A DNA stretch of 64,000 nt from an uncultured Holophagales bacterium (GCA_963741305.1 CAVUHL010000003.1:1434260-1498259), one strand, 5' to 3'. Shown: positions 41,831-55,677, counted from the stretch's first letter. The notes: generated from the sequence alone by a model not told the origin. Translations and numbers: made by a program.

Positions 41831-43654
41831 TTACCACTCGCCGGAAAGGGGGATGCGGCCTGCCGCGGGCGGGCCGAAATGGATTTCCCAGTCGGCTGGG
41901 CCCTGGTCGAAGGCGTCCTTGAGGAGGAACACGGAGGTGGCGGGGATGTAGAGGCCAATGCCGTCCTTGCCGTCACCGTCCCAATCGCCGGCGATCGGAA
42001 TCCAGCCGGCCTTGGGCAGGCCGAAGCGGACGAAGATGTCCGCGTCTCCACTCATGAGCTGGTTCTTCAGACGGAAGGCGCCCCGGGCCGGATCGTAGAA
42101 GCCGGCGCTGTCCCGGCCGTCACCATCCCAATCGCCCGTGACCGGCAGCAAGCGGCTGTGCGGCGGGCCGAAGCGGAAGGAGAGCTCGGTCCCATCCCCC
42201 TGCATCCGAAAGGTCGAGGTGGCGCGCTCGTAAAAGCCGACCGTGTCCCGGCCGTCGCCGTCCCAGTCGCCGGTCAGGGGCACCGCTCCCTGCTTCGTCG
42301 ATTTCCGCGCATCGTACAGCTTGACCGTGGTGCGTCCATCGCCGTCCCAGTCGCCCGCGAGCGGGAGCCAGCCTTTTCCTGGGAGGCCCATCTTCACGGT
42401 GCGGTCCTCGGGTCCGGAGAGGTGGAGGTCTTTGACCAGGAGGCGCGCGGCAGAGGGCTCATAGAGCGCCACCGTATCGACCGGGTGAGCCGGGGCGAGG
42501 CGGAGCAGGCGGCCGGCCAGGGTGGTCAAGACCAGCTCGCCGTGCGAGTCCTCCCCGAAGGAGGTGACGTAATCGGCCCGCACTGGCAGCTCGCGCACCT
42601 GCCATTGATCGGATTTCCGCTCCGCTGCCCAGAGCTGGCCATTGCAAGTGTCACCGAAGATGTAGGCCCCGTGGAGGTGGGGGAGGGCGGTGCCGCGGTA
42701 CACATAGCCGCCCGTGATCGAGTAGCACGGGTCGTCCTCGTGGGCGTACTCCAGGATTGGAGAGGTGTAGAGCGGCGAGTCGCAGGGGGGCGTGTCCTCG
42801 GGGCAGCCTTCGGAGGTGTAGCAGACGGTCCCCTCGAGGACGTTCCAGCCGTAGTTGCGCCCTCCGGGGCTCCCCGCCGGCTCGAAGTCGATCTCCTCCC
42901 GCAGCTCTTCCCCTACGTCGCCGATGTAGAGGTCGCCGGTCTGCCGGTCGAAGGAGAAGCGCCAGGGGTTGCGCAGGCCCGTGGCCCAGACTTCCTCCCT
43001 CATGGATGTACTGCCGCGGAAGGGATTGCTGGGCGGGATGGCATACGGGGATCCGGAGTCCACGTCGAGGCGCAGGATCTTGCCGAACAGCGTCGCGCCT
43101 TGCTGGGCAAAGCACATCGGATCGCCGCCTACATGCCCTTCGCTGCCGCCGTCTCCGATGCTGGCATAGAGGTAGCCGTCCGGCCCGAACTGGAGCTGCC
43201 CGCCGTTGTGCTCCTGGTAGGTCTTGGGAACGCGGAGCAGGATCTCGCCGCTCGCGGGGTCGGCCCGGTTGGGATCGGGGGACACCCGGTAGCGGGCGAT
43301 GACCACCGCGCCTTCGAGGTCCGTGTAGCAGACGAAGAAGAGGCCGTTGTGCCCATAGTCCGGATGGAAGGCAAGGCTCAGGAGGCCGCGCTCGCCGCCG
43401 GTGCTGACCAGGGCTTGGAGGTCCAGGAAGGGCTCGGAGCGGAGCGCGCCTCCGGAGAAGACATGGATCACGCCCTTCTGCTGTGTAAGAAAGAGACGAT
43501 CATCATCAGCGCTCGTGACCGAGGTGAGCCGGAACAGGTCGGTGCCCAGGTCGATCAATGCTGCAGCCGGCGGCGGCCCCACCGGCTGGAAGACCGCCGC
43601 CGTGGAAGTTAGAGGCAAAAGCCAGAGCAGCGCCGCAGCGCAGAGCTTACCCAT
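41831..43654 (-). CDS. PQQ-dependent sugar dehydrogenase (soluble glucose/sorbosone dehydrogenase beta-propeller) with C-terminal FG-GAP/VCBS-like GDWDGDG repeats
   Basis: Signal peptide; GSDH-like segment (RGLLSLAFHPDYGHNGLFFVCYTD, HNGGQLQFGPDGYLYASIGDGG); four GDWDGDG repeats at C-terminus. Confidence 0.7.
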   Translation of the reverse strand: MGKLCAAALLWLLPLTSTAAVFQPVGPPPAAALIDLGTDLFRLTSVTSADDDRLFLTQQKGVIHVFSGGALRSEPFLDLQALVSTGGERGLLSLAFHPDYGHNGLFFVCYTDLEGAVVIARYRVSPDPNRADPASGEILLRVPKTYQEHNGGQLQFGPDGYLYASIGDGGSEGHVGGDPMCFAQQGATLFGKILRLDVDSGSPYAIPPSNPFRGSTSMREEVWATGLRNPWRFSFDRQTGDLYIGDVGEELREEIDFEPAGSPGGRNYGWNVLEGTVCYTSEGCPEDTPPCDSPLYTSPILEYAHEDDPCYSITGGYVYRGTALPHLHGAYIFGDTCNGQLWAAERKSDQWQVRELPVRADYVTSFGEDSHGELVLTTLAGRLLRLAPAHPVDTVALYEPSAARLLVKDLHLSGPEDRTVKMGLPGKGWLPLAGDWDGDGRTTVKLYDARKSTKQGAVPLTGDWDGDGRDTVGFYERATSTFRMQGDGTELSFRFGPPHSRLLPVTGDWDGDGRDSAGFYDPARGAFRLKNQLMSGDADIFVRFGLPKAGWIPIAGDWDGDGKDGIGLYIPATSVFLLKDAFDQGPADWEIHFGPPAAGRIPLSGEW

Positions 43655-43682
43655 ACGGATGCTGAATTTATAAGCAATTCTC

Positions 43683-45604
43683 TCACCAGGGGAAGCTGCC
43701 GAAGGCTTTCTCTTTTGGCCATAGCTCGTCGAGGGTGTCCGCCTCGTAGAGCCGGCCTCCCTTCATCACCCAGCGCAGGCTGGTGGTGTTGAGGATGTCC
43801 TCCAGCGGGTTCTTCTCCAGGACGAGCAGGTCGGCGAGCTTGCCGGCGGCAGCCAGCGGCGGAGCTTGCGCTGGTCCTCGGGCCTGAGGCGCGAGAGGAA
43901 GAGCTCCTTGTTGGCCGTCCCCGGGCCGCTGACGCCGAGGGTCGGCGAGTAGAAGTAGCCGGCCTGGCCAAGGAGAAGACCGGGTCGCCGCTGGTGAAGA
44001 CACGCGGCCCGGTCATCCCTCCGGCCTCGAGCGTCTCGGAGGAGGAGAACGTGTTCTGCGAGCCGGAGTCCGGATCGAAGGTGGTCGTCACTCCATAGGC
44101 GAGGTACGCCGCCGCCTCGTAGTTGTGCCAGGGGATGATCTCGGCCTGCCCTTCGTTGTGGTGAGCATGCATGTCGACGAAGCCCGGGATCACGGTCGTC
44201 CCGGCCGCGTCGAGGACGCGGTCCACCCCTCGGACGTCGCAGTCTCCGAGGCAGGAGATGCGTCCGTCGCGCACGACCACGGTCCCCTTCTCGATGACCT
44301 TGCGGCCCTCCAGGGTGACGAGCCGCGCTCCGGTGAGAGCGATGCTTCCCCGGGCGCGGGCTCGCGGGCTCTCCAGCCTCACGTCTCGCGCCTCCAACTT
44401 GCAGTTCGGAGGATTCCTGCAGAGGTAGAACCGGTCGCCATCGCCAATCCCAAGGGTGGTGGAGTCGATCCAGCGCGGGGAAAGGCCGCCGTCGGTTGTG
44501 AGCCGCCGGCCGGCGAAACCCTCGGCCTCGTAGTCGAGGAACGGCGGCTTGCCATCCGGCCCGGGCTGCGGGAAGGCATGGACGAATACCTCGTCCCCCT
44601 CTTCCCAGGCGAGCCAGCGGCCATCGGGCGAAGGGGTGACCTCGTCGGCGTTGCGGAAGGCCGCATGCACCCGCCGATCGCCGCCATTGCGGTCGACCGA
44701 CACCAGGTCGGTGAGGAACCAGCCCTCCTCTTCACGGTGCTCGGGGAAGTAGATCCTTCCCTCGGGGCCGAACGAGGGGCGGACGATCTCGCGCCGGTGG
44801 CTGTAGGGCTCGTAGACGAACCGCGGCCGGCTGACTTTGGTTAGAAGACGGGGTTTTCCTCCATCAGAAGGGAGCAGGGCGATCTCGTAGCCGGTATTGT
44901 CCGCCCAGGTGAGCGCGGAACCTTCCCGATTACCGCGAACGATCAGCAGCTCGCGGCCATCGGGGGTCCAGACCGGGTGCAGGTACGGCCGTCCAGCAGG
45001 TCGCCGCGGATTTCATTGGAGTCTTCGAGCGGAGTCAGGGCCTGGTAATAAAGATAGCGGCGTCCCGGGAAGGGGAGGGCCACTCCACCGTCCCCTCCAC
45101 CAGCAGCTCCTCTTTTGCGTCTTTCGCGTCGGGACCGTCGAGCGGGATCCGGAACAGGCCATCCCCGCGCTTGGCAAAGAGGTGCTTGCCGTCGGTGCTC
45201 CAGGCAGGCTGGAGGAGGCGGTATCGGGGATCGGTGGGGACCCGCCGGGGGGCCGAGCCGTCCGCGTTCATGATCCAGAGGTGGGGATGGCCGGCGCGGT
45301 CGGAGACGAAGGCGATGCGCTTGCCGTCCGGGGAGAAGCGGGGATGGATGTTGAGCGCCACTCCGCTCGACTGAGTCAGGCACTCGGCCTCGCCTCCGGA
45401 GGCCGGAAGGCGGTAGACGTGGCCAAGCAGGTCGAAGACGATCCACTTGCCATCCGGGGATAGGTCGAGGGACATCCAGGTCCCTTCGCGGGTGGTGAAG
45501 TCGATCTTCCGGACCTTGCCGCGGGGCTGAGACACGTCCCAGGGCGATTCCGCCATTGCTGGGGCTGCAAGCAGGGCAATCAGGGCGAGCGCTTTCAAGG
45601 TCAT
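43683..45604 (-). pseudogene. amidohydrolase with N-terminal TolB-like beta-propeller, disrupted by at least four frameshifts
   Basis: Protein-like translation continues across four reading frames (45035-45604 ...EELLVEGTVEWPSP | FPGRRYLYYQALTPLEDSNEIRGDLLDG | RPYLHPVWTPDGRELLIV...GFVDMHAHHNEG...VFTSGDPVFS | GQAGYFYSPTLGVSGPGTANKELFLSRLRPEDQRKL | AAAGKLADLLVLEKNPLEDI...); signal peptide present. Confidence 0.55.
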
Positions 45605-46440: not shown

Positions 46441-46653
46441 CCCTCACCCCCGACCCCTCTCCCGGCCGCACACCCGGACCCCCGGGAGAGGGGAGGCCTC
46501 GAGATCCACCGGCGTCGCCATCCGTGGCTTGTAGCAGGGGATAACCTGGTTCACCAGCCACGTATGGCCACGTATGGCGATGACGCTGGATCTTGCGCGC
46601 CCCCCTCTCCCGGGGGTCCGGGTGTGCGGCTGGGAGAGGGGCTGGGGGTGAGG
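46441..46653. mobile_element. MITE-like element copy A (about 210 bp, 53-bp terminal inverted repeats)
   Basis: Left arm ccctcacccccgacccctctcccggccgcacacccggacccccgggagaggggag, right arm cccctctcccgggggtccgggtgtgcggctgggagaggggctgggggtgaggg; internal about 100 bp bounded by gagatccac / ggatct. Confidence 0.75.
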
Positions 46654-46656
46654 GTT

Positions 46657-47373
46657 TTACCCAACCAGCCGTAGCCCCGCCCGCACATACTCCCGCACCC
46701 GCTCCGAATCCAACCGGTCTTCCTCATCCCGCAGACAGGTCTCCGCGTCGAAGCTCAGCTCCGGGAACTCGGCGAGCAGAGGCTCGAGAAGGTGGAGGTT
46801 CGAGGCGCTCAGCCCTCCAGCCACGCCGAGCCCGAGCCCCGTGTCCGCCAAGGCGCGCAGGAAGGGGAGGAGGGCCGCGGGATCGAGCGGGCGGCCCTGG
46901 CCTCCGCTCGCGTCGAGGAGGAGATCATCGGCCAGGCCGGCGATCTCCCTCGCACGGCGGGCGGCTTCTTCCGGCGGGCCCGCCAGCATGCCGGCGTCCA
47001 TCTGGATCACGATCCGCAGCCCTCGGAGGGCCTCAAGATCGTCCCGCGAAGGCCAGACCCCGTTGATCTGGAAGCCGTGGAGGTTCGGCCCGCATCTCTC
47101 GGCCACAGCGGCGAGCTGGCGGCCGAGCGTGGCGGGCTCGTCGGTGTAGTAGTGGACGAGGTTGAGGGCGATCGGATGGTCCGGGAAGATCTCCGGGATC
47201 GCCTCCACCGTAGGAAGGCGCCTGGGGCTCCTCTCCGGCAGGCCCGCGCAGGTCCGCCGGCTCGCGAGCACGCCCACCATGAGGAGACGGCGCGAGGTGA
47301 GAGGGACGAGAGCGAGGGCCTCGCTCACCTGGGCCGCGGTGGTGAAGCCCGTCACTCCGATGTAGGGACTCAT
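46657..47373 (-). CDS. hypothetical protein, possibly phosphoribosylanthranilate-isomerase-like TIM barrel; last gene of cytochrome operon
   Basis: 238 aa; MSPYIGVTGF... N-terminus and Gly-rich phosphate-binding-like C-terminus; 4-nt overlap with upstream gene. Confidence 0.35.
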   Translation of the reverse strand: MSPYIGVTGFTTAAQVSEALALVPLTSRRLLMVGVLASRRTCAGLPERSPRRLPTVEAIPEIFPDHPIALNLVHYYTDEPATLGRQLAAVAERCGPNLHGFQINGVWPSRDDLEALRGLRIVIQMDAGMLAGPPEEAARRAREIAGLADDLLLDASGGQGRPLDPAALLPFLRALADTGLGLGVAGGLSASNLHLLEPLLAEFPELSFDAETCLRDEEDRLDSERVREYVRAGLRLVG

Positions 47374-48680
47374 GAACCTCCGAAGCGCACGCCGAGCTTC
47401 TTGAGGAAGTCGAACGGGGGGACGCCGCCGGCGAAGACGAAGACCCAGTCGTTGGGGAGCTCGACCTCCTGCTCCTTGACCTTGAGCTTGACGCGGCCGG
47501 GGCCGATCTCGACCGGCTGCGAGCCGAAGAGCGGCTTGACCTTGCCGGCGGCGAGGAGCGCGTCAAGGGCGTCCTGGTTCTTCTTCTTGAGCCGCACGAG
47601 CTTGTCCCGGCGATAGGAGAGGGTCACCACGTTTCCTGTCTGGCAGCTCAGGCCGATGGCGGCTTCCGCGGCGCTGTCCCCGCCTCCCACCACCAGGATT
47701 TTCTGTCCCCGGTACCCCTCGGCATCGATGAGACGATACATCACCTTCGACAGCTCCTCTCCGGGCACTCCGAGCTTGCGCGGCGTGCCGCGGCGGCCCA
47801 GGGCGAGCACGACCGCCCGCGTCCGGACTTCCTCCCCGCGCGCCGTGCGCAGGGTAAATATACCGTCCTCCTCTCTTTGCACTTCCCTCCGGATGTCAAT
47901 AACCGCCTCGCCGAAGCGCACATCCAGAGTGTGGTCGCGGACCAGCCCTTCGAAGAGATCGAGGAGGACTTCCTTGCTGTACTCCTCCCGGTCCAGCGCT
48001 CCCCAGGGCGGAAGCTCGACCTTTTGAGTGAGGACCATCTTGCGCCGCGGGTAATGGAGGAGGCTCCCGCCGAGAGTCTCCTCGCGCTCGAAGACGGCGT
48101 AGGAGAGGCCGGAGGTCGCGGCGGTGAGGCCGGCGCTCAGCCCGGCTGGTCCGGCTCCGACGATCGCGACATCCAGGATGCCGGGCGTCTTCTCGGTCCG
48201 TGGCAGATGCTCGATAACCCGGCGTCCCTGGAAAGCCGCGTTGCGGACGAGGGAGAGGCCGCCTAGCTCGCCTACGATGTAGATACCGGAGACGGTGGTC
48301 TGGTAATGATCGTCGAGGAGGGGAACGTCCTCCCTCGATTTGAGGTCGCCGAGGCCGACCTGGATGGCGCCGACCGGGCAGGCTTCTTCGCAGCGGCCAT
48401 GCCCCACACAGCGCAGGCCATTGACCACCACCGCCGTGCCCCCTACGACTCCGAGCACATCCCCCTCAGGGCAGGCTTTGACGCAGGCTCCGCAGCCGAT
48501 GCAGCGGCTCGGATCGATGTAGGGGAACTGGGCCGCGGGCTTGTCGATGCCCAGGGCCGCGGCTTCCTCCTTGCGCTCGCGGTCCAGCTTCACCCGCCGA
48601 CGGAAACGGAGCAGGTAGGGGAGGACGATCAGGCCCGCGATCAGGAGGGCCGCGCCCCAGACGAGGACCGGCTCCGTCAA
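47370..48680 (-). CDS. membrane-anchored FAD/NAD(P)-binding oxidoreductase with 4Fe-4S dicluster ferredoxin domain
   Basis: Probable TTG start overlapping upstream stop; N-terminal TM; two CxxCxxCxxxCP motifs (CIGCGACVKACPEG, CVGHGRCEEACPVG); GxGxxG dinucleotide motifs (VAIVGAGPAG, ILVVGGGDSAAE). Confidence 0.7.
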   Translation of the reverse strand: MTEPVLVWGAALLIAGLIVLPYLLRFRRRVKLDRERKEEAAALGIDKPAAQFPYIDPSRCIGCGACVKACPEGDVLGVVGGTAVVVNGLRCVGHGRCEEACPVGAIQVGLGDLKSREDVPLLDDHYQTTVSGIYIVGELGGLSLVRNAAFQGRRVIEHLPRTEKTPGILDVAIVGAGPAGLSAGLTAATSGLSYAVFEREETLGGSLLHYPRRKMVLTQKVELPPWGALDREEYSKEVLLDLFEGLVRDHTLDVRFGEAVIDIRREVQREEDGIFTLRTARGEEVRTRAVVLALGRRGTPRKLGVPGEELSKVMYRLIDAEGYRGQKILVVGGGDSAAEAAIGLSCQTGNVVTLSYRRDKLVRLKKKNQDALDALLAAGKVKPLFGSQPVEIGPGRVKLKVKEQEVELPNDWVFVFAGGVPPFDFLKKLGVRFGGS

Positions 48681-50428
48681 AATCGGTATCCCAGCCCCAG
48701 GGTCATGCGCTGCCCTTCGATCTCGTCTCCGGTGAGGACTTCCAGCTCGGCCTGGCCGAAGAGGTCCAACGGTAGCTCCAGCCAGAGCGAGGCGCGGGCC
48801 CATTGGGTGGTGGTCTCCTCGTCGACGAGCAGCGACTGCCGCGACAGGGTACCGCCCAGGCCGAGGCTCAGTTCGTGCCCGCCGCCGAAACGCCGGCCGA
48901 CCCGAGTGGTGACGAGCAGGCCGTCGGTGGTCGGATTGGTGAAGCCAAGCACGTCGGCGCCCACGAACAGCTTCAAGCCGGACAGCTCCGGGTGCCAGGC
49001 GCCCACGCCGAGGGAGAAGCTCGTCTCGGAGTCGGCGCCCTCGATCCCCTCATCGCGGGCATCCAGGGCATGCGCGCCCGCGGTCACGGAGAAGTTGAGC
49101 CCCCGCGCCGGACCGGTCTGATAGCTGACCCGCAGCCCCTGCCGCGTCAGGTCGTCGAACAGCTCCGTGGGGATGAAGCGGCTCTCCTCGGTGAGGAAGC
49201 GCTCGAAACGGTCGTAGGAGATCACCAGGCGGCTGCGCTCCGAAAGGCGACCCAGGGCGGTGAGCGAGAGTTGGGAGAGCTGCGAGGTGCTGCCGGCGGC
49301 CTCCTCCCTCCAGCCGGTGTTGAGGTCCAGCTCGGCGTGCTGAAAGAAGGTCCAGCGCTGGCCGGGGTCGTAACGGGTCTCGATGGCCACGAACTCGCGG
49401 CTGATGTCGGTCTCTCCCTCTTCGCGGACTCCGGCCACGAAAAGCTCGAGTCCGTTCGACTCCGGGGCGATGCGGACGAAGGCGCCGTACTTGGATCCGG
49501 AGCCGTCGAAGCCCAGCTCCTCGATGTTGGGCCGGCGGCCGTAGAAGCCGCCCACCTCGAGCGGTCCGAGGACGCGCACCTTGCCGAGGCCGCCATCCAG
49601 GTAGCCGATGCCCACGAACGGGCCAGCGCCGAGGCGGCCGACCCGGAAGCCATAGCGGGCGTCCTCCGGCTCATAGATCAAGGACAGCTCGTAGAGCCGG
49701 TCGCGGCTCGTGGATTCGGGAATGCCGCCGATACTGCTCACGAGCCGACGCTCGCGCTCCTCGTCGAGGCTGCGCATCCGGAGCCGGAGTTGGAGCGGAG
49801 TACCGACGATGTCCCGCACCCGCACGTTGAGCCGTGCGGCCGTGCGGTTGAAGTCGCGGCGGCTCTCGGTGCCATCCGAAAAGACCTCGCTCTCCAGGGA
49901 GACCGCGCCGGTCACGCGGGTCCGGGTTGGACGCGGGCTTTCCGTTCGCGGGATGGGCTTCTCGGTCCGAGGAGCTTCCGCCGGCGGGGGAGCAGGAACG
50001 GGAGCGGGAGCCGCCTCGCCGATCCGCCGCACGCGGTCATCCGCCTGGATTGCCTTGCGTTCGTTCAGGACGCGGCAGGAAGCCGAGTGCTCCGCCGTGA
50101 AGAGAACCTCGATCTCCGCGATGACTTCACTCCCGCGGACGACCTCCAGCCGGTCTCCCACCTCGATCCCCGAAGCCCGGCCATTGTTCAGATAAATCGT
50201 ATCCGCGGACCTGTAGCGCACCGCGAGGGGGTTCTGAGCCATCAACGGCACGGCAATCAGCAGGAAAATGTAGGGGCGGGTCTTGTGCCCGCCCGGGAGG
50301 GGGAAGATCCCGCTCCAAGATCCTGCCGAATTTCGTTCCCGGACGTTTCCCCCACCCGGGCGGGCACAAGACCCGCCCCTACAGACGAGGGCCACGAGAT
50401 GGACGAGATAAAAGAAGTGCCTTTTCAT
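48677..50428 (-). CDS. outer-membrane beta-barrel (porin-like) protein
   Basis: 583 aa, alternating amphipathic beta-strand pattern, C-terminal ...LGLGYRF (terminal Phe); N-terminal region reads through a REP palindrome so true start may lie near 50270. Confidence 0.55.
   Translation of the reverse strand: MKRHFFYLVHLVALVCRGGSCARPGGGNVRERNSAGSWSGIFPLPGGHKTRPYIFLLIAVPLMAQNPLAVRYRSADTIYLNNGRASGIEVGDRLEVVRGSEVIAEIEVLFTAEHSASCRVLNERKAIQADDRVRRIGEAAPAPVPAPPPAEAPRTEKPIPRTESPRPTRTRVTGAVSLESEVFSDGTESRRDFNRTAARLNVRVRDIVGTPLQLRLRMRSLDEERERRLVSSIGGIPESTSRDRLYELSLIYEPEDARYGFRVGRLGAGPFVGIGYLDGGLGKVRVLGPLEVGGFYGRRPNIEELGFDGSGSKYGAFVRIAPESNGLELFVAGVREEGETDISREFVAIETRYDPGQRWTFFQHAELDLNTGWREEAAGSTSQLSQLSLTALGRLSERSRLVISYDRFERFLTEESRFIPTELFDDLTRQGLRVSYQTGPARGLNFSVTAGAHALDARDEGIEGADSETSFSLGVGAWHPELSGLKLFVGADVLGFTNPTTDGLLVTTRVGRRFGGGHELSLGLGGTLSRQSLLVDEETTTQWARASLWLELPLDLFGQAELEVLTGDEIEGQRMTLGLGYRF
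50269..50390. repeat. REP-type palindrome (GTAGGGGCGGG ... CCCGCCCCTAC) with about 65-bp loop, inside 5' end of the beta-barrel ORF
   Basis: gtaggggcgggtcttgtgcccgcccgg ... ccgggcgggcacaagacccgcccctac; arms closely resemble the REP at 30302. Confidence 0.7.
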
Positions 50429-50430
50429 CT

Positions 50431-51300
50431 CTACTCCCTCCCCTGCGGATGGCAGGACAGACAGGCGTTGCTCTCATAGCGGTAGCCGCGGACGTCGTCG
50501 TCGTCGTGCTCCTCGTCCATCTCTCTCCGATTGTGCTCGTGGCAGTTGAGGCAGGAGAAATTCTGGAAGCTCCCCTGGTTGACCGACGTGTGGCAGTCCG
50601 AGCAACTGTTCCAGACCCCGCGGTGCGGGCCGGAGAAGATGGGGAAGAACCGCGCGTCGTGCGCCCGGAAGTCCGCGTCCGAGAAGTCCGAGGTGGTGTG
50701 ACAGGTCTCGCAAGTCGTCGGGAACCCGGAGCGGACGTGGTCGGGCTGCGCCCGGCGGTAATCCTCGGCGTGGCAGGAGAAGCAATCCATCGGCGTGCCG
50801 CGGAACTCGAAGGGCGGGCTCCCCCGGTGGCAGGAGCCGCAATCCACCGCCGCGTGGGCTCCGGTCAGCGGGAACAGGCTCGCGTTGTGGATCTCGAACA
50901 CCCGGCGCCGGCTGTCCCAGCCATGCGGCGAGTGGCAGCTCTCGCACGAGAGCCCCAACTCGCCCTGGTGCGGGTCGCGGTGGCAGTCCGCGCACGCCGA
51001 GGCCACGCGCTGGAACCGGAGATCCTGGTGGCACCCCAAGCAGGCGACCTTCTGGTGGCTCTTGATCAGGGCGAACCCGGTCTCCTTGCCATGATCGAAG
51101 GGCAGGGGCTCGCGCAGCGGGCGCCATCCCTCGGGGGAATGGCAGTGCTCGCAGCCCCAGCGCAACGGGCCATGCGGATTGCCGCCGGTGGTCTCCTGGC
51201 CCTGAGCCCGGCCTCGAGTCTGGCCCTGCGCCGTTCCCAGGATGGCTGCGGTCAGGAATCCGGCAGCCAGCAGGAGTTGTAGGAGCAGCCGTTTCTTCAT
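50431..51300 (-). CDS. decahaem c-type cytochrome (periplasmic/secreted)
   Basis: Signal peptide MKKRLLLQLLLAAGFLTAAILGTAQG; ten CxxCH motifs (CEHCH, CLGCH, CADCH, CESCH, CGSCH, CFSCH, CETCH, CSDCH, CLNCH, CLSCH) in 290 aa. Confidence 0.85.
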   Translation of the reverse strand: MKKRLLLQLLLAAGFLTAAILGTAQGQTRGRAQGQETTGGNPHGPLRWGCEHCHSPEGWRPLREPLPFDHGKETGFALIKSHQKVACLGCHQDLRFQRVASACADCHRDPHQGELGLSCESCHSPHGWDSRRRVFEIHNASLFPLTGAHAAVDCGSCHRGSPPFEFRGTPMDCFSCHAEDYRRAQPDHVRSGFPTTCETCHTTSDFSDADFRAHDARFFPIFSGPHRGVWNSCSDCHTSVNQGSFQNFSCLNCHEHNRREMDEEHDDDDVRGYRYESNACLSCHPQGRE

Positions 51301-52973
51301 GTGGTTCTCCCGTGACAACCTTCGCAGGTGATCGGAAGCGGTTTGAAGCGGACGACCCGGCCTTCAGATCGATGACACGCGCTACAGGGCAGGCGGGCGT
51401 GGGCTCCCACCAGCTTGAAGCGCGAGTGCCGGTCGTGATCGAACGTGACGCGGGCCCAGCTCTGCACCGAGTGGCACGATTGGCAGCCCGCCTGGACGAG
51501 CTGCCCCTCATGGGGATCGCCATGGCAGGCATTGCAGGCTTTGGGAGTGCCTTGAAACTTCCCCTGCTTGTGGCATTGGCCGCAGGACACCTTCTGATGC
51601 CCGCCTTCCAAGGGGAAGCCGGTCTTCGTGTGATCGAAGGCCGCGAGATGCGTCCAGCCCTCGATCGAGTGGCACGTCCGGCACCCCTGCGGACCCTGGA
51701 CGCGGCTCACCTGCCCTTTGTGGGGATCGCCGTGACAGGCCTGGCACTCGGTGGACTCCCACTTGAAGCGGATCACCCCGGAGGCGTTCTTCTTGTGACA
51801 GGAGATGCAGGGCACCGCGAGGTGAGCCCCCTGAAGAGGGAAGCGGGTCTTCTGGTGCCGCTCCAGGGGGAAGGTCGAGGGAGAGAAGCCCGACAGCGTG
51901 TGGCAGCTCTCGCAGGCCGAGCTTGCGATCTGTCCCGCGTGGACGTTCTTGTGACAATCCGCGCACGCCTGGAACTTTGCGAAGCGCAGGCTCCGGCCAG
52001 AGGTGTGGCAAGACTGGCAGCTCACCTTCTGATGCTGCCCGCGCAGGGGGAAGCGGGTCTTGTCGTGATCGAACTTTGCGCTGCTCCCCACCTTCCATCC
52101 GGCGGTGGAGTGGCACTGCTGGCAAGTCGTGCCGAGCCGCCCCTGGTGCGGGTCCTTGTGGCAATCGGTGCACCGCTGGTGCGCCAGCTTCGTGAACTTT
52201 CCCGATTTGTGACAGCTCGCGCAGGCCACGGCCTTGTGCTGGCCGGTGAGCGGGAAGCCGGTGCGGTCGTGATTGAAATTGGCCATGGCACCCGTCTTCC
52301 ACCCGGCAGTGGAGTGGCACTGCTGACAGGTAGCTCCGAAGCGTCCCTGGTGCGGGTCCTGGTGGCAGCTCGCGCAGCTCTGGTGCTGGATTCCCTTAAA
52401 CTGCCCGCTCGGGTGACAGCTCGCGCAAGCGACCTTCTGATGCAGTCCGGTGAGAGGAAAGACCGAATGGTCGAGCTTCGCAAGCGGCTTCCAAGCCACC
52501 GTCGTGTGGCAGGAGACGCAGGCCTTTTGAGCGAACTGGCCGCGGTGCTCGTCCCGGTGGCAGGAACGGCAGGTGGGGGAGAGCCCGAGAAAGGTTTTCT
52601 TCGGCGGACGGTGGCAGGACTGGCAAGCCTGCTTCGCGTGCGCTCCTTGCAGCGGCCATCCGGTCGAGCGGTGATCGAATCCAGCCTGTCCCTTCTTCCC
52701 CCAATCGATGAGCTTGAACTCCCGTCCGTGGTGCTCGATGTGGCAGGTCTGGCAGGCGCGGTACTCGGGCCGGGCGTGAAGCCGGCTGGACTTGATGGCG
52801 GTGTGGCAGTCGAGGCACTTCGAGGGCGCCACACCCTGGCCGGCCTGGTGGCACTTCAGGCAGTTGGCGCTCCCTTCCAGCTTGGCGTGCGGCTGGCTGA
52901 GCTTGCCGGGGGAGAGCTGGGCCGCGAGGGGGGCCGAAGCGAGGAACAGCGCCAGGATGATCCCCTTTCGCAT
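51297..52973 (-). CDS. large multihaem c-type cytochrome (about 23 CxxCH motifs)
   Basis: Signal peptide MRKGIILALFLASAPLAAQ; CxxCH repeated about every 22-25 residues through 558 aa. Confidence 0.85.
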   Translation of the reverse strand: MRKGIILALFLASAPLAAQLSPGKLSQPHAKLEGSANCLKCHQAGQGVAPSKCLDCHTAIKSSRLHARPEYRACQTCHIEHHGREFKLIDWGKKGQAGFDHRSTGWPLQGAHAKQACQSCHRPPKKTFLGLSPTCRSCHRDEHRGQFAQKACVSCHTTVAWKPLAKLDHSVFPLTGLHQKVACASCHPSGQFKGIQHQSCASCHQDPHQGRFGATCQQCHSTAGWKTGAMANFNHDRTGFPLTGQHKAVACASCHKSGKFTKLAHQRCTDCHKDPHQGRLGTTCQQCHSTAGWKVGSSAKFDHDKTRFPLRGQHQKVSCQSCHTSGRSLRFAKFQACADCHKNVHAGQIASSACESCHTLSGFSPSTFPLERHQKTRFPLQGAHLAVPCISCHKKNASGVIRFKWESTECQACHGDPHKGQVSRVQGPQGCRTCHSIEGWTHLAAFDHTKTGFPLEGGHQKVSCGQCHKQGKFQGTPKACNACHGDPHEGQLVQAGCQSCHSVQSWARVTFDHDRHSRFKLVGAHARLPCSACHRSEGRVVRFKPLPITCEGCHGRTT

Positions 52974-52974
52974 C

Positions 52975-53802
52975 CTATTGCCAGGCGTAGCCGGTCATGA
53001 TCGCGACCGCGATGTGGAGGATCATGAAGACGTACATCACGACCGCGAAGGGTTTGTGCAGGACGTGCCAGTGATGAAACAGCTCCTGAAGCCGGCTCCA
53101 CAGCAACAGCCGCCGCTGGAGGAGCGCCTTCTGGCGGATTGTCCGCAGCAGCTCGGCGGATCCCCGATGGCGGGACAATCGGTGGAACGAGCGCAGCCGC
53201 CAGCGCAGGCGGATCCCGTCCAGAGGCATGCGGAAGAGGGACGGCGACAGGTCCGCCGCGAGAGCCTCCAGCTCCTTGAGCGGCCCCTCTCCCAGCTCTT
53301 CTTTCAGCCGCAGGGAGAGCTCCGCATTCAGCTCCTCGACCTCCTTGAGGCTGAGCTGATCGCCGGCCCGCGTGCGTGGGATCTGGAGGTAGAGGTAGCG
53401 CCCAAGGACCCCCGAGAGCGCCACCACCACCATCGACCAGAAGCTGAGCGCCACCAGCCCGTGCACCTTGAACGAGCTGTGGAGCACCACCAGCAGCGGC
53501 CCGATCACGCCGCAGAAGATGTGGAAGTCGAGCCAGTCGCGGAGCTTGCCCGCGCCGCGTAGCGCCTTGGTCCGCTTGCGCACCGAGTAGACGAGCATCA
53601 CGACCATCAGCGACGAGCCCACGATGCCGAGCAGGTGCCCGCGCGAGCCGCCGGGCTTGAGCGTCCAATAGTCCTCGTGCCGCGGACGCTCGATCAGGGG
53701 GGTGCCGTAGTACGAGCTGCCCTCCCACGCGAGGACGGCAATGACCGCCAGCGCGGCGGCGTAGACCGTGGTCAGGACGAGCTTGCGGACGGGCAGCTTC
53801 AT
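52975..53802 (-). CDS. integral membrane protein with intramembrane histidines, putative dihaem cytochrome b (quinol-interacting)
   Basis: 5 TM helices with His in helices (DFHIF, VVLHSS, HHWHVLH, MILHIA); first gene of the cytochrome operon. Confidence 0.45.
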   Translation of the reverse strand: MKLPVRKLVLTTVYAAALAVIAVLAWEGSSYYGTPLIERPRHEDYWTLKPGGSRGHLLGIVGSSLMVVMLVYSVRKRTKALRGAGKLRDWLDFHIFCGVIGPLLVVLHSSFKVHGLVALSFWSMVVVALSGVLGRYLYLQIPRTRAGDQLSLKEVEELNAELSLRLKEELGEGPLKELEALAADLSPSLFRMPLDGIRLRWRLRSFHRLSRHRGSAELLRTIRQKALLQRRLLLWSRLQELFHHWHVLHKPFAVVMYVFMILHIAVAIMTGYAWQ

Positions 53803-53844: not shown

Positions 53845-54054
53845 GCCTCACCCCCGGCCCCTCTCCCGGCCGCACACCCGGACCCCCGGGAGAGGGGAGC
53901 GCGCGAGATCCACAGACATCGCCATATATCGCTCGCCCGGTAGAAACCCGGTCCTGCTGTGGACAAGCCACTTATGGAGTTGCGGTTGGATCTGGAGGCC
54001 TCCCCTCTCCCGGGGGTCCGGGTGTGCGGCGGGAGAGGGGCTGGGGGTGAGGGG
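53845..54054. mobile_element. MITE-like element copy B (internal segment inverted relative to copies A and C)
   Basis: Same 53-bp terminal inverted repeats; internal gcgcgcgagatccac...ggatctggaggcc is reverse complement arrangement of copy A. Confidence 0.75.
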
Positions 54055-55435: not shown

Positions 55436-55639
55436 CCCTCACCCCCGGCCCCTCTCCCATCCGCACACCCGGGCCCCCGGGAGAGGGGAGGCCTCTAGAT
55501 CCAGCTTCCATCTCCACCTGCGGCTTGCCCTGTCTCGTTTCTCCGGGCGAGCCCCGTACGGTGATGTCGGTGGATCTCGCGCGCCCCCCTCTCCCGGGGG
55601 TCCGGGTGTGCGGCCGGGAGAGGGGTTGGGGGTGAGGGC
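55436..55639. mobile_element. MITE-like element copy C
   Basis: Same terminal inverted repeats (cccctctcccatccgcacacccgggcccccgggagagggg ... cccctctcccgggggtccgggtgtgcggccgggagagggg), internal ggcctctagatcc...ggtggatctcgcgcgc. Confidence 0.75.
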
Positions 55640-55677
55640 CGGTAACTTCCCCCACCCACTTCCGTAAACTACCCCTG

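What the first reader, a model, noticed from the sequence alone, without database searches (positions are those of the whole stretch)
46657..53802. Candidate porin-cytochrome extracellular electron-transfer conduit operon
Six minus-strand genes are tightly coupled, with 4-nt overlaps or 1-3-nt gaps:
- a His-rich 5-TM putative cytochrome b
- a cytochrome c with about 23 haems
- a decahaem cytochrome c
- a 530-580-aa outer-membrane beta-barrel ending in ...GLGYRF
- a membrane-anchored FAD/NAD(P) oxidoreductase with a 2x[4Fe-4S] ferredoxin domain
- a TIM-barrel protein

An inner-membrane quinol-oxidising cytochrome b, periplasmic multihaem wires and an OM barrel together make the logic of Geobacter/Shewanella Pcc/Mtr-type conduits. 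This gene order, with the very large 23-haem protein, does not match the named systems that I know. It could be a new trans-envelope electron conduit, possibly for metal, humics or interspecies electron transfer.
Basis: partly seen in the sequence, partly recalled or inferred. Interest (0 to 1): 0.7.

Follow-up and report, generated by a model that had tools for sequence, protein, structure and literature searches.

The report
PCC3-type porin-cytochrome electron conduit operon
This is a real, tightly packed gene cluster for a chain of haem proteins that could carry electrons from the inner membrane to the cell surface; it belongs to an already named but untested type (PCC3), here with an extra conserved NAD(P)H-type flavoprotein that suggests the chain is fed from the cytoplasm rather than from the quinone pool.

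Summary
There are six translationally coupled minus-strand genes. They encode a 5-TM protein with two invariant His pairs, a 23-CxxCH cytochrome, a 10-CxxCH cytochrome, a 22-strand outer-membrane barrel, a membrane-anchored FeS flavoprotein and a small unassigned protein.

The cluster does match a named type. The first four genes fit "PCC3" (He et al. 2017) in gene order, in the inner-membrane-protein motifs (WX3HX13H twice, plus SGXXG), in the ~66-residue repeat of the ~21-haem cytochrome and in a 22-strand porin. PCC3 is defined only bioinformatically and has never been tested.

The fifth gene is the new element. This FeS flavoprotein co-occurs with the module in 13 of 14 evaluable metagenome loci. 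It is also present on a plasmid of the cultured Bacteroidota Emticicia oligotrophica. On a Methylophaga plasmid an unrelated FAD/NAD/2Fe-2S reductase takes its place.

My preferred reading is NAD(P)H → FAD/FeS → two b haems across the inner membrane → 23-haem periplasmic wire → 10-haem cytochrome and barrel → outside. That would be a ferric-reductase-like export line that bypasses quinones. Direction, partners and substrate are inferred, not shown. The sixth gene is lineage-specific.

Verdict: a new variant of a known kind, of moderate to good interest.

The parts
52975..53802 (-). g1: inner-membrane protein (275 aa), a predicted dihaem b-type cytochrome and the 'IMP' of PCC3-type clusters
51297..52973 (-). 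g2: periplasmic 23-haem cytochrome c (558 aa), made of seven c7-like trihaem repeats plus a dihaem unit
   Evidence: There are 23 CxxCH at 24.3 aa per haem, and the trihaem units recur every 66-75 residues. Cytochrome_C7 matches seven times, E 1e-28. The N-terminus MRKGIILALFLASAPLAA/QL reads as a Sec signal without a lipobox. A ~20-24-haem gene directly follows the g1 homologue in 35 of 36 evaluable metagenome loci.
50431..51300 (-). g3: decahaem cytochrome c (289 aa from the ATG at 51300; an upstream TTG at 51318 is less likely). It corresponds to the variable second MHC of the module.
   Evidence: It has 10 CxxCH and a signal peptide, MKKRLLLQLLLAAGFLTAAILGTAQG, with no lipobox Cys. Its N- and C-terminal parts align with the two ends of the 40-haem Emticicia cytochrome. 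Orthologous positions in other loci hold 10-46 haems. The match to DmsE/MtrA TIGR03508 is only 30 bits against a cutoff of 192.
48677..50428 (-). g4: outer-membrane protein. A small N-terminal beta domain (residues ~69-135) and a Pro-rich linker precede a 22-strand beta-barrel (residues ~171-583). The true start is uncertain.
47370..48680 (-). g5: inner-membrane-anchored, cytoplasm-facing FeS flavoprotein (436 aa from the TTG at 48680). It has an N-terminal TM helix, the motifs CxxCxxCxxxCP and CxxHxxCxxxCP, and a TrxR/YpdA-type FAD + NAD(P)H domain without a redox-active CxxC.
   Evidence: Domains come from Pfam, NCBIfam and PDB matches. Among the 120 closest homologues, 110 have the TM helix, with 0.03 K/R in the 15 aa before it and 7.6 in the 15 aa after. 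The His in the second FeS motif is invariant. All but one Cys lie in the FeS motifs. g5 is found in 13 of 14 g1-seeded loci with at least 8 kb downstream and in Emticicia (E 2.9e-104).
46657..47373 (-). g6: a 238-aa protein of unknown family, translationally coupled to g5. It is a lineage-specific add-on and not part of the conserved module.
   Evidence: It overlaps g5 by 4 nt. Only sub-threshold family hits were found. Homologues appear only in the three closest loci, L001, L004 and L005.
53846..54052 (.). A ~210-nt MITE/REP-like element with ~60-nt terminal inverted repeats. It ends 44 nt upstream of the g1 start codon.
   Evidence: The arms are exact 27-mer matches, against 0 expected by chance.
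46441..46654 (.). A second copy of the same inverted-repeat element, lying 3 nt downstream of the g6 stop codon.

Best explanation
Genes g1-g5 form a conserved five-gene module. The window copy sits in a Thermoanaerobaculia-like (Acidobacteriota) genome.

Four of the genes correspond to the predicted 'PCC3' porin-cytochrome cluster:
- an inner-membrane dihaem-b protein;
- a ~21-haem periplasmic cytochrome;
- a second multihaem cytochrome of variable length;
- an OM barrel.

The fifth gene, g5, encodes a flavoprotein anchored in the inner membrane by one N-terminal helix. Its FAD/NAD(P)H domain and its two FeS clusters (one His-ligated) face the cytoplasm.

Most likely mechanism: NAD(P)H reduces FAD in g5. 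Electrons then pass through the two FeS clusters to the cytoplasmic-side b haem of g1 (H94/H249) and on to the periplasmic-side b haem (H108/H263). They travel along the 23-haem wire g2 across the periplasm, enter the 10-haem g3 held in or at the 22-strand barrel g4, and leave to an extracellular acceptor such as Fe(III)/Mn(IV) minerals, humics or a partner cell. In effect this is a split ferric-reductase/NOX-like transmembrane dehydrogenase prolonged by a c-haem wire, and it bypasses the quinone pool.

Shown here: gene content, motifs, predicted folds, topology signals and conservation of the gene set across phyla.
Inferred: cofactor binding, protein contacts, direction of flow, independence from quinones and the substrate.

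g6 is an unrelated lineage-specific passenger.
For: Match to PCC3:
- The g1 motifs and its 5 TM helices match the IMP definition in PMC5566968.
- The order IMP, periplasmic MHC, second MHC, porin equals Slit_1446-1449.
- g2 has 23 haems, 24 aa per haem and a ~67-aa repeat. PCC3 periplasmic MHCs have 21-24 haems and 66-aa repeats, and the L. cholodnii PCC3 porin has 22 TM strands. The g4 model has 22 strands.

Conservation of the module:
- The full g1-MHC-MHC-barrel-g5 order appears in L002, L003, L012 and L013 and in many g1-seeded metagenome loci.
- Among g1-seeded loci, 35 of 36 have an MHC right after g1. Of the 14 with at least 8 kb downstream, 13 have g5 and 12 have the barrel.
- Rearranged loci keep g5 in the set: L007 has barrel-g5-g1-MHC20, and L033, L069 and L080 have g1-MHC20-g5.
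- The Emticicia oligotrophica plasmid carries ccsA-g1-g5-MHC23-MHC40-barrel, and all five proteins are homologous to the window's.

Link to NAD(P)H:
- The Methylophaga plasmid has an unrelated FAD_binding_6 + NAD_binding_1 + Fer2 reductase translationally coupled to an IMP homologue and a 7-haem cytochrome. An NAD_binding_1 protein also sits next to g1-MHC20 in L009.
- He et al. noted 'another redox protein' of 412-805 aa beside related IMP-MHC pairs.

Topology and cofactors:
- Positive-inside statistics place the g5 domains in the cytoplasm.
- g5 has no CxxC disulphide, so it is not a disulphide reductase.
- The SYRR motif follows GGGDSA in 112 of 120 homologues. It resembles the HRR NADPH motif of TrxR; that comparison rests on my own knowledge.
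- DUF4405-type proteins bind haem b (PMC11334425).
- The top fold hit of g1 is a dihaem cytochrome b561.
Against: - Nothing has been tested experimentally for any member.
- PCC3 genes of Sideroxydans ES-1 were down-regulated on Fe(II) and their role is unknown.
- Published proteobacterial PCC3 clusters are described as four genes with a hypothesised quinone link. I could not check whether they have a g5 neighbour.
- The best fold match of g1, CybB, is a quinone-reactive cytochrome. A quinone site is therefore not excluded.
- The linkage is not absolute. L011 has MHC-barrel-g5 without g1 within 9 kb, and L030 has g1-MHC20 without g5 or the barrel in 10 kb.
- Direct export of NAD(P)H electrons would conserve no energy at the inner membrane.
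- Neither cytochrome has a lipobox, so how g3 would be held at the surface is unclear.
- Barrel lumen occupancy and the g3-g4 fit were not modelled.
Confidence: 0.5

Rival explanations
1. This is a quinone-linked PCC3, as in the published model. g1 is a quinol oxidase or quinone reductase that connects the menaquinone pool to the cytochrome wire, in either direction. g5 is an accessory, for example a redox sensor, a repair reductase or a second input.
For: He et al. proposed exactly this for the IMP. The top fold hit of g1 is the quinone-reactive CybB, and FdnI also appears in the list. All experimentally established EET inner-membrane modules are quinol or quinone enzymes (PMC6295460). L030 and the published four-gene PCC3 clusters lack g5.
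Against: No quinone-site motif was identified. g5 is retained through several gene rearrangements and across phyla. In Methylophaga it is replaced by a non-homologous NAD(P)H-flavo-FeS reductase, which is hard to explain if g5 were an accessory.
Confidence: 0.25
2. The same hardware runs inward. Electrons from Fe(II), a cathode, Fe(0) or a syntrophic partner enter through g4/g3/g2 and cross g1. g5 then uses them to reduce NAD(P)+ for biosynthesis.
For: PCC3 was discovered in Fe(II) oxidisers and proposed for electron uptake. The PCC3 copy-2 IMP of Sideroxydans CL21 was up-regulated when cells oxidised iron. Like PioAB/MtoAB, the cluster has no lipoprotein surface cytochrome.
Against: Moving electrons inward against the membrane potential and uphill to NAD(P)+ (about -320 mV) from typical Fe(II) couples needs an energy input, and no component for that is encoded here. 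This point is an inference from established bioenergetics. ES-1 PCC3 genes were down-regulated on Fe(II).
Confidence: 0.1
3. This is not a trans-outer-membrane conduit. The cytochromes act in the periplasm as an electron store or as a reductase for a soluble compound that enters through an ordinary diffusion barrel.
Against: The barrel is strictly syntenic with the MHCs in a family of more than 2400 cluster representatives. A 22-strand barrel is much larger than is needed for solute diffusion. Haem density of 24-29 aa per haem and bis-His-sufficient His counts fit wires rather than catalytic sites. There are no CxxCK or catalytic-haem signatures.
Confidence: 0.08

Closest known systems
PCC3 porin-cytochrome c gene cluster (He et al. 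2017, PMC5566968), e.g. Sideroxydans lithotrophicus ES-1 Slit_0867-0870 and Slit_1446-1449, and Leptothrix cholodnii SP-6
   Same: Four components appear in the same order: IMP, ~21-27-haem periplasmic MHC, variable second MHC and porin. The IMP is about 300 aa with 5 TM helices, two WX3HX13H motifs and SGXXG. The periplasmic MHC has ~66-aa repeats at ~25 aa per haem. The porin has 22 strands, as in L. cholodnii.
   Different: PCC3 was reported only in Alpha-, Beta- and Gammaproteobacteria and as four genes feeding the quinone pool. Here the host is Acidobacteriota (with a Bacteroidota counterpart), and a fifth conserved gene, the NAD(P)H-type FeS flavoprotein, belongs to the set. Sequence homology to the proteobacterial proteins could not be tested. 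PCC3 itself has no experimentally shown function.
MtrCAB / MtoAB / PioAB
   Same: A decahaem cytochrome gene lies next to a large OM barrel gene. As in MtoAB/PioAB, there is no surface lipoprotein cytochrome.
Eukaryotic and bacterial ferric-reductase/NOX-type systems (FRD domain; MsrQ-Fre) and DUF4405 cytochromes
   Same: Two His pairs spaced by 13 residues on two TM helices would stack two b haems across the membrane, and the electron input is a cytoplasmic NAD(P)H flavoprotein.
   Different: The dehydrogenase is a separate TrxR-type flavoprotein with two FeS clusters, not a fused FNR-type domain. Pfam scores for Ferric_reduct and DUF4405 fall below the cutoffs. The acceptor would be a 23-haem cytochrome c rather than O2, Fe(III) or MsrP.
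Tmc/Hmc transmembrane redox complexes of sulfate reducers
   Same: They share the working logic of a periplasmic multihaem cytochrome c, a membrane cytochrome b and a cytoplasmic FeS protein, passing electrons across the inner membrane without an obligatory quinone step. This comparison rests on my own knowledge. g2 and g3 give weak HmcA hits (E ~4e-4 and ~9e-4, far below cutoff).
   Different: There is no HdrD-like CCG protein, and the cytochrome b family differs. The system is NAD(P)H-linked and coupled to an OM barrel.
Geobacter c7-polymer 'nanowire' cytochromes (GSU1996 type) and OmbB-OmaB-OmcB / Ext clusters
   Same: g2 is built of tandem c7-like trihaem units (Pfam Cytochrome_C7 seven times). 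The clusters share porin-plus-MHC logic.
   Different: There is no PDB sequence match, no lipoprotein OM cytochrome, and a different inner-membrane module. Homology of the porin to OmbB, ExtB or ExtI could not be tested.

Membership tests
PCC3 (He et al. 2017) | A conserved inner-membrane protein of about 300 aa with five TM helices | tested here: met
   g1 is 275 aa. The AF2 model has TM helices at 5-27, 53-77, 87-108, 116-140 and ~240-270.
PCC3 (He et al. 2017) | WX3HX13H on TM3 and on TM5, and SGXXG on TM4 | tested here: met
   The motifs are W90..H94..H108, S130-G-V-L-G134 and W245..H249..H263. They are invariant in the 35-sequence alignment. The same motifs also occur in PCC4 IMPs, so on their own they do not separate PCC3 from PCC4.
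PCC3 (He et al. 2017) | A periplasmic MHC with ~21-27 haems, a low aa-to-haem ratio and ~66-aa repeats | tested here: met
   g2 has 23 CxxCH at 24.3 aa per haem and a repeat period of 66-75 residues.
PCC3 (He et al. 2017) | A second MHC with a variable haem number (10-85) that is predicted extracellular | tested here: inconclusive
   g3 has 10 haems, and its orthologous positions hold 10-46. Extracellular location cannot be tested with these tools. The protein has a Sec signal and no lipobox.
PCC3 (He et al. 2017) | An adjacent OM beta-barrel porin, with the gene order IMP, MHCp, MHCe, porin | tested here: met
   The barrel has 22 strands. The gene order equals Slit_1446-1449.
PCC3 (He et al. 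2017) | Sequence homology of the IMP and porin to the proteobacterial PCC3 proteins | not testable with these tools
   No Slit_ or Lcho_ sequences were reachable.
MtrAB/MtoAB/PioAB | A porin of the MtrB/PioB family (PF11854 / TIGR03509) | tested here: not met
MtrAB/MtoAB/PioAB | A decahaem cytochrome of the DmsE/MtrA family (TIGR03508) | tested here: not met
   g3 scores 30.1 bits against a cutoff of 192.2, and the match is partial.
OmbB-OmaB-OmcB / Ext clusters (Geobacter) | An outer-surface lipoprotein multihaem cytochrome | tested here: not met
   Neither g2 nor g3 has a lipobox Cys after the signal peptide. Porin homology is not testable.
CymA / CbcL / ImcH quinol oxidases | An inner-membrane protein that itself carries c-type haems | tested here: not met
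   g1 has 0 CxxCH and 1 Cys.
Pfam DUF4405 / Ferric_reduct (dihaem cytochrome b clan) | A score above the Pfam gathering threshold | tested here: not met
   DUF4405 scores 23.1 against 26.7, and Ferric_reduct 15.2 against 28. A few homologues carry precomputed hits to PF14358, PF01794 or PF01292. The resemblance is therefore at clan level only.
Thioredoxin / bacillithiol-disulfide reductases (TrxR, YpdA) | For TrxR, a redox-active CxxC in the NADPH domain. For either family, a score above the equivalog cutoff. | tested here: not met
   The only CxxC in g5 lies in the first FeS motif. YpdA scores 140.5 against 339.9, and TrxR 78 against 343.
Nitrite / hydroxylamine reductase modules (NrfA, HAO) | A CxxCK or catalytic-haem signature, or a family match | tested here: not met
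   There is no CxxCK. The Pfam and NCBIfam hits are only to c7/c3 wire-type domains.
TonB-dependent receptors | An N-terminal plug domain and a TonB_dep_Rec match | tested here: not met
   There is no Pfam hit. The N-terminal domain is a ~65-aa beta domain joined by a Pro-rich linker.

The most novel reading that the evidence does not exclude
The five-gene module is a complete electron wire from the cytoplasm to the cell surface that does not use the quinone pool. An NADPH-type flavoprotein with a His-ligated exit FeS cluster docks on a dihaem-b membrane protein, which feeds about 33 c haems and an OM barrel. If so, the previously unexplained 'IMP' of PCC3, PCC4 and related clusters is the membrane half of a bacterial split ferric-reductase/NOX analogue. 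That would be a new class of inner-membrane EET module, widespread in Acidobacteriota and Bacteroidota and, with a swapped reductase, in Proteobacteria.
Probability: 0.4. Interest if true: 0.8.

Novelty: new variant of a known kind. Interest (0 to 1): 0.58.

Why it matters
- PCC3-type clusters carry some of the largest multihaem cytochromes known. They are widespread in iron-cycling bacteria, yet eight years after they were named their function and their inner-membrane link remain unknown.
- This window extends the type to Thermoanaerobaculia, a class that includes metal reducers. The barrel family has more than 2400 cluster representatives in metagenomes.
- The conserved and sometimes non-orthologously replaced NAD(P)H flavo-FeS partner gives a concrete, testable alternative to the assumed quinone link.
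- A plasmid-borne copy in a cultured strain, Emticicia oligotrophica DSM 17448, offers an experimental entry point.
- If correct, the idea changes how electron budgets of soil and sediment Acidobacteriota are modelled. NAD(P)H could be disposed of directly to minerals or humics. It would also add a new inner-membrane module to the EET toolbox.

Tried and rejected
Searches that gave nothing or little:
- PDB sequence searches gave nothing for g1, g2, g3, g4 or g6.
- The exact-sequence look-up of g2 found no record.
- The genome-contig scan with the barrel found only two close Thermoanaerobaculia MAGs and one N-terminal-domain hit.
- tblastn of the barrel against plasmids found nothing, because the Emticicia barrel is only 21% identical. 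It was recovered instead with the family HMM.
- The AFDB Foldseek library was unavailable, so the intended test against Sideroxydans and Leptothrix proteins could not be run.
- Literature searches for Emticicia + multiheme and for PCC3 + Acidobacteriota returned nothing.
- A 2026 preprint on Acidobacteriota porin-MHC clusters describes other architectures, with 8-13 haems in Terriglobia.

Readings considered and rejected:
- Nitrite or hydroxylamine reductase module.
- TonB receptor.
- MtrAB, Pcc or Ext membership.
- CbcL, ImcH or CymA membership.
- g5 as a disulphide reductase.
- g6 as a module component.
Reasons for each are given in the membership table.

The first-listed starts for g3 (TTG 51318) and g5 (ATG 48803) were rejected in favour of the ATG at 51300 and the TTG at 48680. 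The rejected starts would overlap the upstream genes by 22 and 127 nt, and the gene callers and homologues use the shorter forms.


Full report
OBSERVATION

| gene | coordinates | product |
|---|---|---|
| g1 | 52975-53802 | 275 aa |
| g2 | 51297-52973 | 558 aa, 23 CxxCH |
| g3 | 50431-51300 | 289 aa, 10 CxxCH |
| g4 | 48677-50428 | ORF of 583 aa |
| g5 | 47370-48680 | 436 aa |
| g6 | 46657-47373 | 238 aa |

No other ORF in the 64-kb window has even two CxxCH. With the starts used by an independent gene call on an identical metagenome contig, and by homologues, the junctions are +1, -4, +2, -4 and -4 nt. The genes are therefore translationally coupled.

Flanking genes are unrelated to electron transfer: a GSDH-like dehydrogenase, an alpha/beta hydrolase, a thioredoxin-like protein, an M28 peptidase and a HAMP-SpoIIE sensor. 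The nearest homologues are from Thermoanaerobaculia MAGs, and the barrel protein is on record from an 8.38-Mb contig.

THE PARTS

**g1.** It has no curated family. DUF4405 and Ferric_reduct both score below threshold, and NCBIfam and PDB sequence searches give nothing.
- An alignment of 35 homologues shows invariant H94/H108 and H249/H263, plus H42 and H246.
- The AF2 model (pLDDT 81.6) has five TM helices and a ~100-residue helical insert between TM4 and TM5.
- Basic residues cluster in the N-terminus, in the TM2-TM3 loop and in the insert. This puts H94/H249 near the cytoplasmic face and H108/H263 near the periplasmic face. I read this from the sequence using the positive-inside rule.
- A DUF4405 protein has been shown to bind haem b (PMC11334425).

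**g2.** It is a Sec-exported protein without a lipobox, built of seven c7-like trihaem units plus a dihaem unit.
- The units recur every 66-75 residues, at 24 aa per haem.
- There are 28 additional His, enough for bis-His ligation of every haem.

**g3.** It is a Sec-exported decahaem cytochrome without a lipobox. It is not a member of the MtrA/DmsE family.

**g4.** The AF2 model (pLDDT 79.9) shows three regions:
- a small beta domain at residues 69-135;
- a Pro-rich linker;
- a 22-strand barrel ending in the usual C-terminal Phe.

**g5.** It has an N-terminal TM helix, then CxxCxxCxxxCP and CxxHxxCxxxCP, then a TrxR/YpdA-type FAD/NAD(P) domain.
- Among the 120 closest homologues, 110 have the helix. 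On average there are 0.03 K/R in the 15 residues before it and 7.6 in the 15 after it, so the redox domains face the cytoplasm.
- The His in the second FeS motif is invariant.
- There is no redox-active CxxC, so the protein is not a disulphide reductase.
- An SYRR motif after GGGDSA resembles the NADPH-binding HRR of TrxR. The analogy rests on my own knowledge.

**g6.** It has no family.

CONSERVATION

Loci reached from the barrel, from g1 or from g5 show the same set:
- L002, L003, L012 and L013 have g1-MHC-MHC-barrel-g5 at 42-68% identity.
- L007 has MHC37-barrel-g5-g1-MHC20.
- L010 has g1-MHC20, with g5 4 kb away.

I then scanned metagenome contigs with the g1 alignment, which gave 80 loci. 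I labelled all their ORFs with HMMs for g1 and the barrel, with phmmer for g5 and g6, and with CxxCH counts.
- Of 36 loci with at least 2 kb downstream of g1, 35 have a multihaem cytochrome immediately after it. That cytochrome nearly always has 20 haems, and 23-24 in the closer relatives.
- Of 14 loci with at least 8 kb downstream, 13 contain g5 and 12 contain the barrel.
- The second cytochrome varies from 10 to 46 haems.
- g6 occurs only in the three closest loci.

tblastn against plasmids found the module in a cultured organism, Emticicia oligotrophica DSM 17448 (Bacteroidota), on plasmid pEMTOL02. The order there is ccsA, g1, g5, a 23-haem MHC, a 40-haem MHC and the barrel. All five proteins are homologous to the window's.

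| protein | similarity to the window's protein |
|---|---|
| g1 | HMM E 1.5e-74 |
| g5 | E 2.9e-104 |
| g2 | 36% identity over 95% of its length |
| g3 | matches both ends of the 40-haem protein |
| barrel | HMM E 4.5e-29 |

WHAT IS KNOWN

He et al. [quoted passage not shown] That protein has five TM helices, WX3HX13H on TM3 and TM5, and SGXXG on TM4.
- g1 carries all three motifs at the right helices.
- The published PCC3 examples have periplasmic MHCs with 21-24 haems and 66-aa repeats. L. cholodnii has a 22-strand porin.
- The ES-1 order Slit_1446-1449 is IMP, cyt-c(p), cyt-c(e), porin, identical to g1-g4.

The cluster is therefore a PCC3-type cluster by every architectural criterion I could test. 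Direct sequence comparison with the proteobacterial proteins was not possible.

PCC3 has been reported only in Proteobacteria and as four genes, with the IMP hypothesised to talk to quinones. Its function is untested, and ES-1 down-regulates it on Fe(II). I found no paper linking PCC3 to Acidobacteriota. A 2026 preprint on Acidobacteriota porin-MHC clusters describes other architectures.

MECHANISM

The new element is g5. Three observations argue that it works with g1:
1. It stays in the gene set through at least four different gene orders and across two phyla.
2. Its redox domains sit on the cytoplasmic face of the same membrane.
3. On a Methylophaga plasmid an IMP homologue with a 7-haem cytochrome is translationally coupled to an unrelated FAD_binding_6/NAD_binding_1/Fer2 reductase. 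An NAD_binding_1 protein also neighbours g1-MHC20 in L009. This is non-orthologous replacement of the same function.

He et al. had also listed an unnamed 'other redox protein' of 412-805 aa beside related IMP-MHC pairs.

The simplest reading is a split ferric-reductase/NOX-like unit: NAD(P)H, FAD, FeS, haem b, haem b. It would feed the periplasmic 23-haem wire and then g3 and g4. I put about 0.8 on 'PCC3-type trans-envelope module' and about 0.5 on the NAD(P)H-linked, quinone-independent, outward mechanism as a whole.

The main rival is the published quinone-linked model. It is supported by the CybB fold match and by loci without g5. Inward electron uptake and a purely periplasmic role are less likely, for the reasons given under the rival explanations.

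VERDICT

The conduit interpretation is reasonable, but the system is not unnamed: it is a PCC3-type cluster. The quinol-oxidase assignment is not supported, and g6 is a passenger.

What is new:
- the phylum;
- the fifth conserved component, with its His-ligated cluster;
- the cross-phylum and plasmid-borne distribution;
- the mechanistic hypothesis that follows from these.

I rate this a new variant of a known kind, with interest about 0.58.

Noticed in passing
window ~46441-46654, ~53846-54052, ~55440-55640: There are three copies of a ~210-nt element with ~60-nt near-perfect terminal inverted repeats (core CCTCTCCCGGGGGTCCGGGTGTGCGGC; 6 arms found, 0 expected by chance). Two copies bracket the six-gene cluster, one 3 nt after the g6 stop and one 44 nt before the g1 start. 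The element looks MITE/REP-like and could act as a terminator or insulator, or mark mobility.
   Followed up: partly
window 50280-50428 (N-terminus of g4): The predicted signal peptide of the barrel (…KTRPYIFLLIAVPLMA/QNP, residues ~49-64) has no canonical start codon just upstream. The only in-frame ATG adds a 50-residue extension that is shared only by the closest relatives. Other homologues start directly with a signal peptide. The true start, possibly a non-canonical codon, is unresolved.
   Followed up: partly
window 47370-48680 (g5), residues ~92-103: The second ferredoxin motif is CxxHxxCxxxCP, and the His is invariant in 120 of 120 homologues. This implies a Cys3His-ligated cluster. 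Such clusters sit at electron exit points in [NiFe] hydrogenases (that comparison rests on my own knowledge).
   Followed up: partly
L095 (Methylophaga pinxianii plasmid NZ_CP095734.1) 7073-10427: A 612-aa FAD_binding_6 + NAD_binding_1 + Fer2 protein is translationally coupled to a 252-aa IMP homologue and a 7-haem cytochrome c. No barrel is present. The cluster lies next to ccm genes and a heavy-metal P-type ATPase.
   Followed up: partly
L094 (Emticicia oligotrophica plasmid NC_018749.1) 5818-18402: The homologous module is preceded by a fused 1028-aa CcsA cytochrome c biogenesis gene and followed by a GW-domain protein. The same plasmid region also encodes a Rieske protein, a DUF5777 barrel, YceI and a c-type cytochrome on the other strand.
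   Followed up: no
L006 (Bacillota MAG) 1561-1803: The small N-terminal beta domain of the barrel protein (residues 70-134, 36% identity) occurs in a Bacillota MAG without the barrel.
   Followed up: no
window 43609-45604, minus strand: A PD40 (TolB-like beta-propeller) ORF and an amidohydrolase-fragment ORF lie in different frames. They look like pieces of one larger gene interrupted by a frameshift, which could be a pseudogene or a sequence error.
   Followed up: no
L010 9456-11486: The public gene call puts a 452-aa gene with no Pfam hit on the minus strand here. The plus strand carries a 20-CxxCH ORF right after the g1 homologue, so the multihaem cytochrome was probably missed by the caller.
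   Followed up: partly
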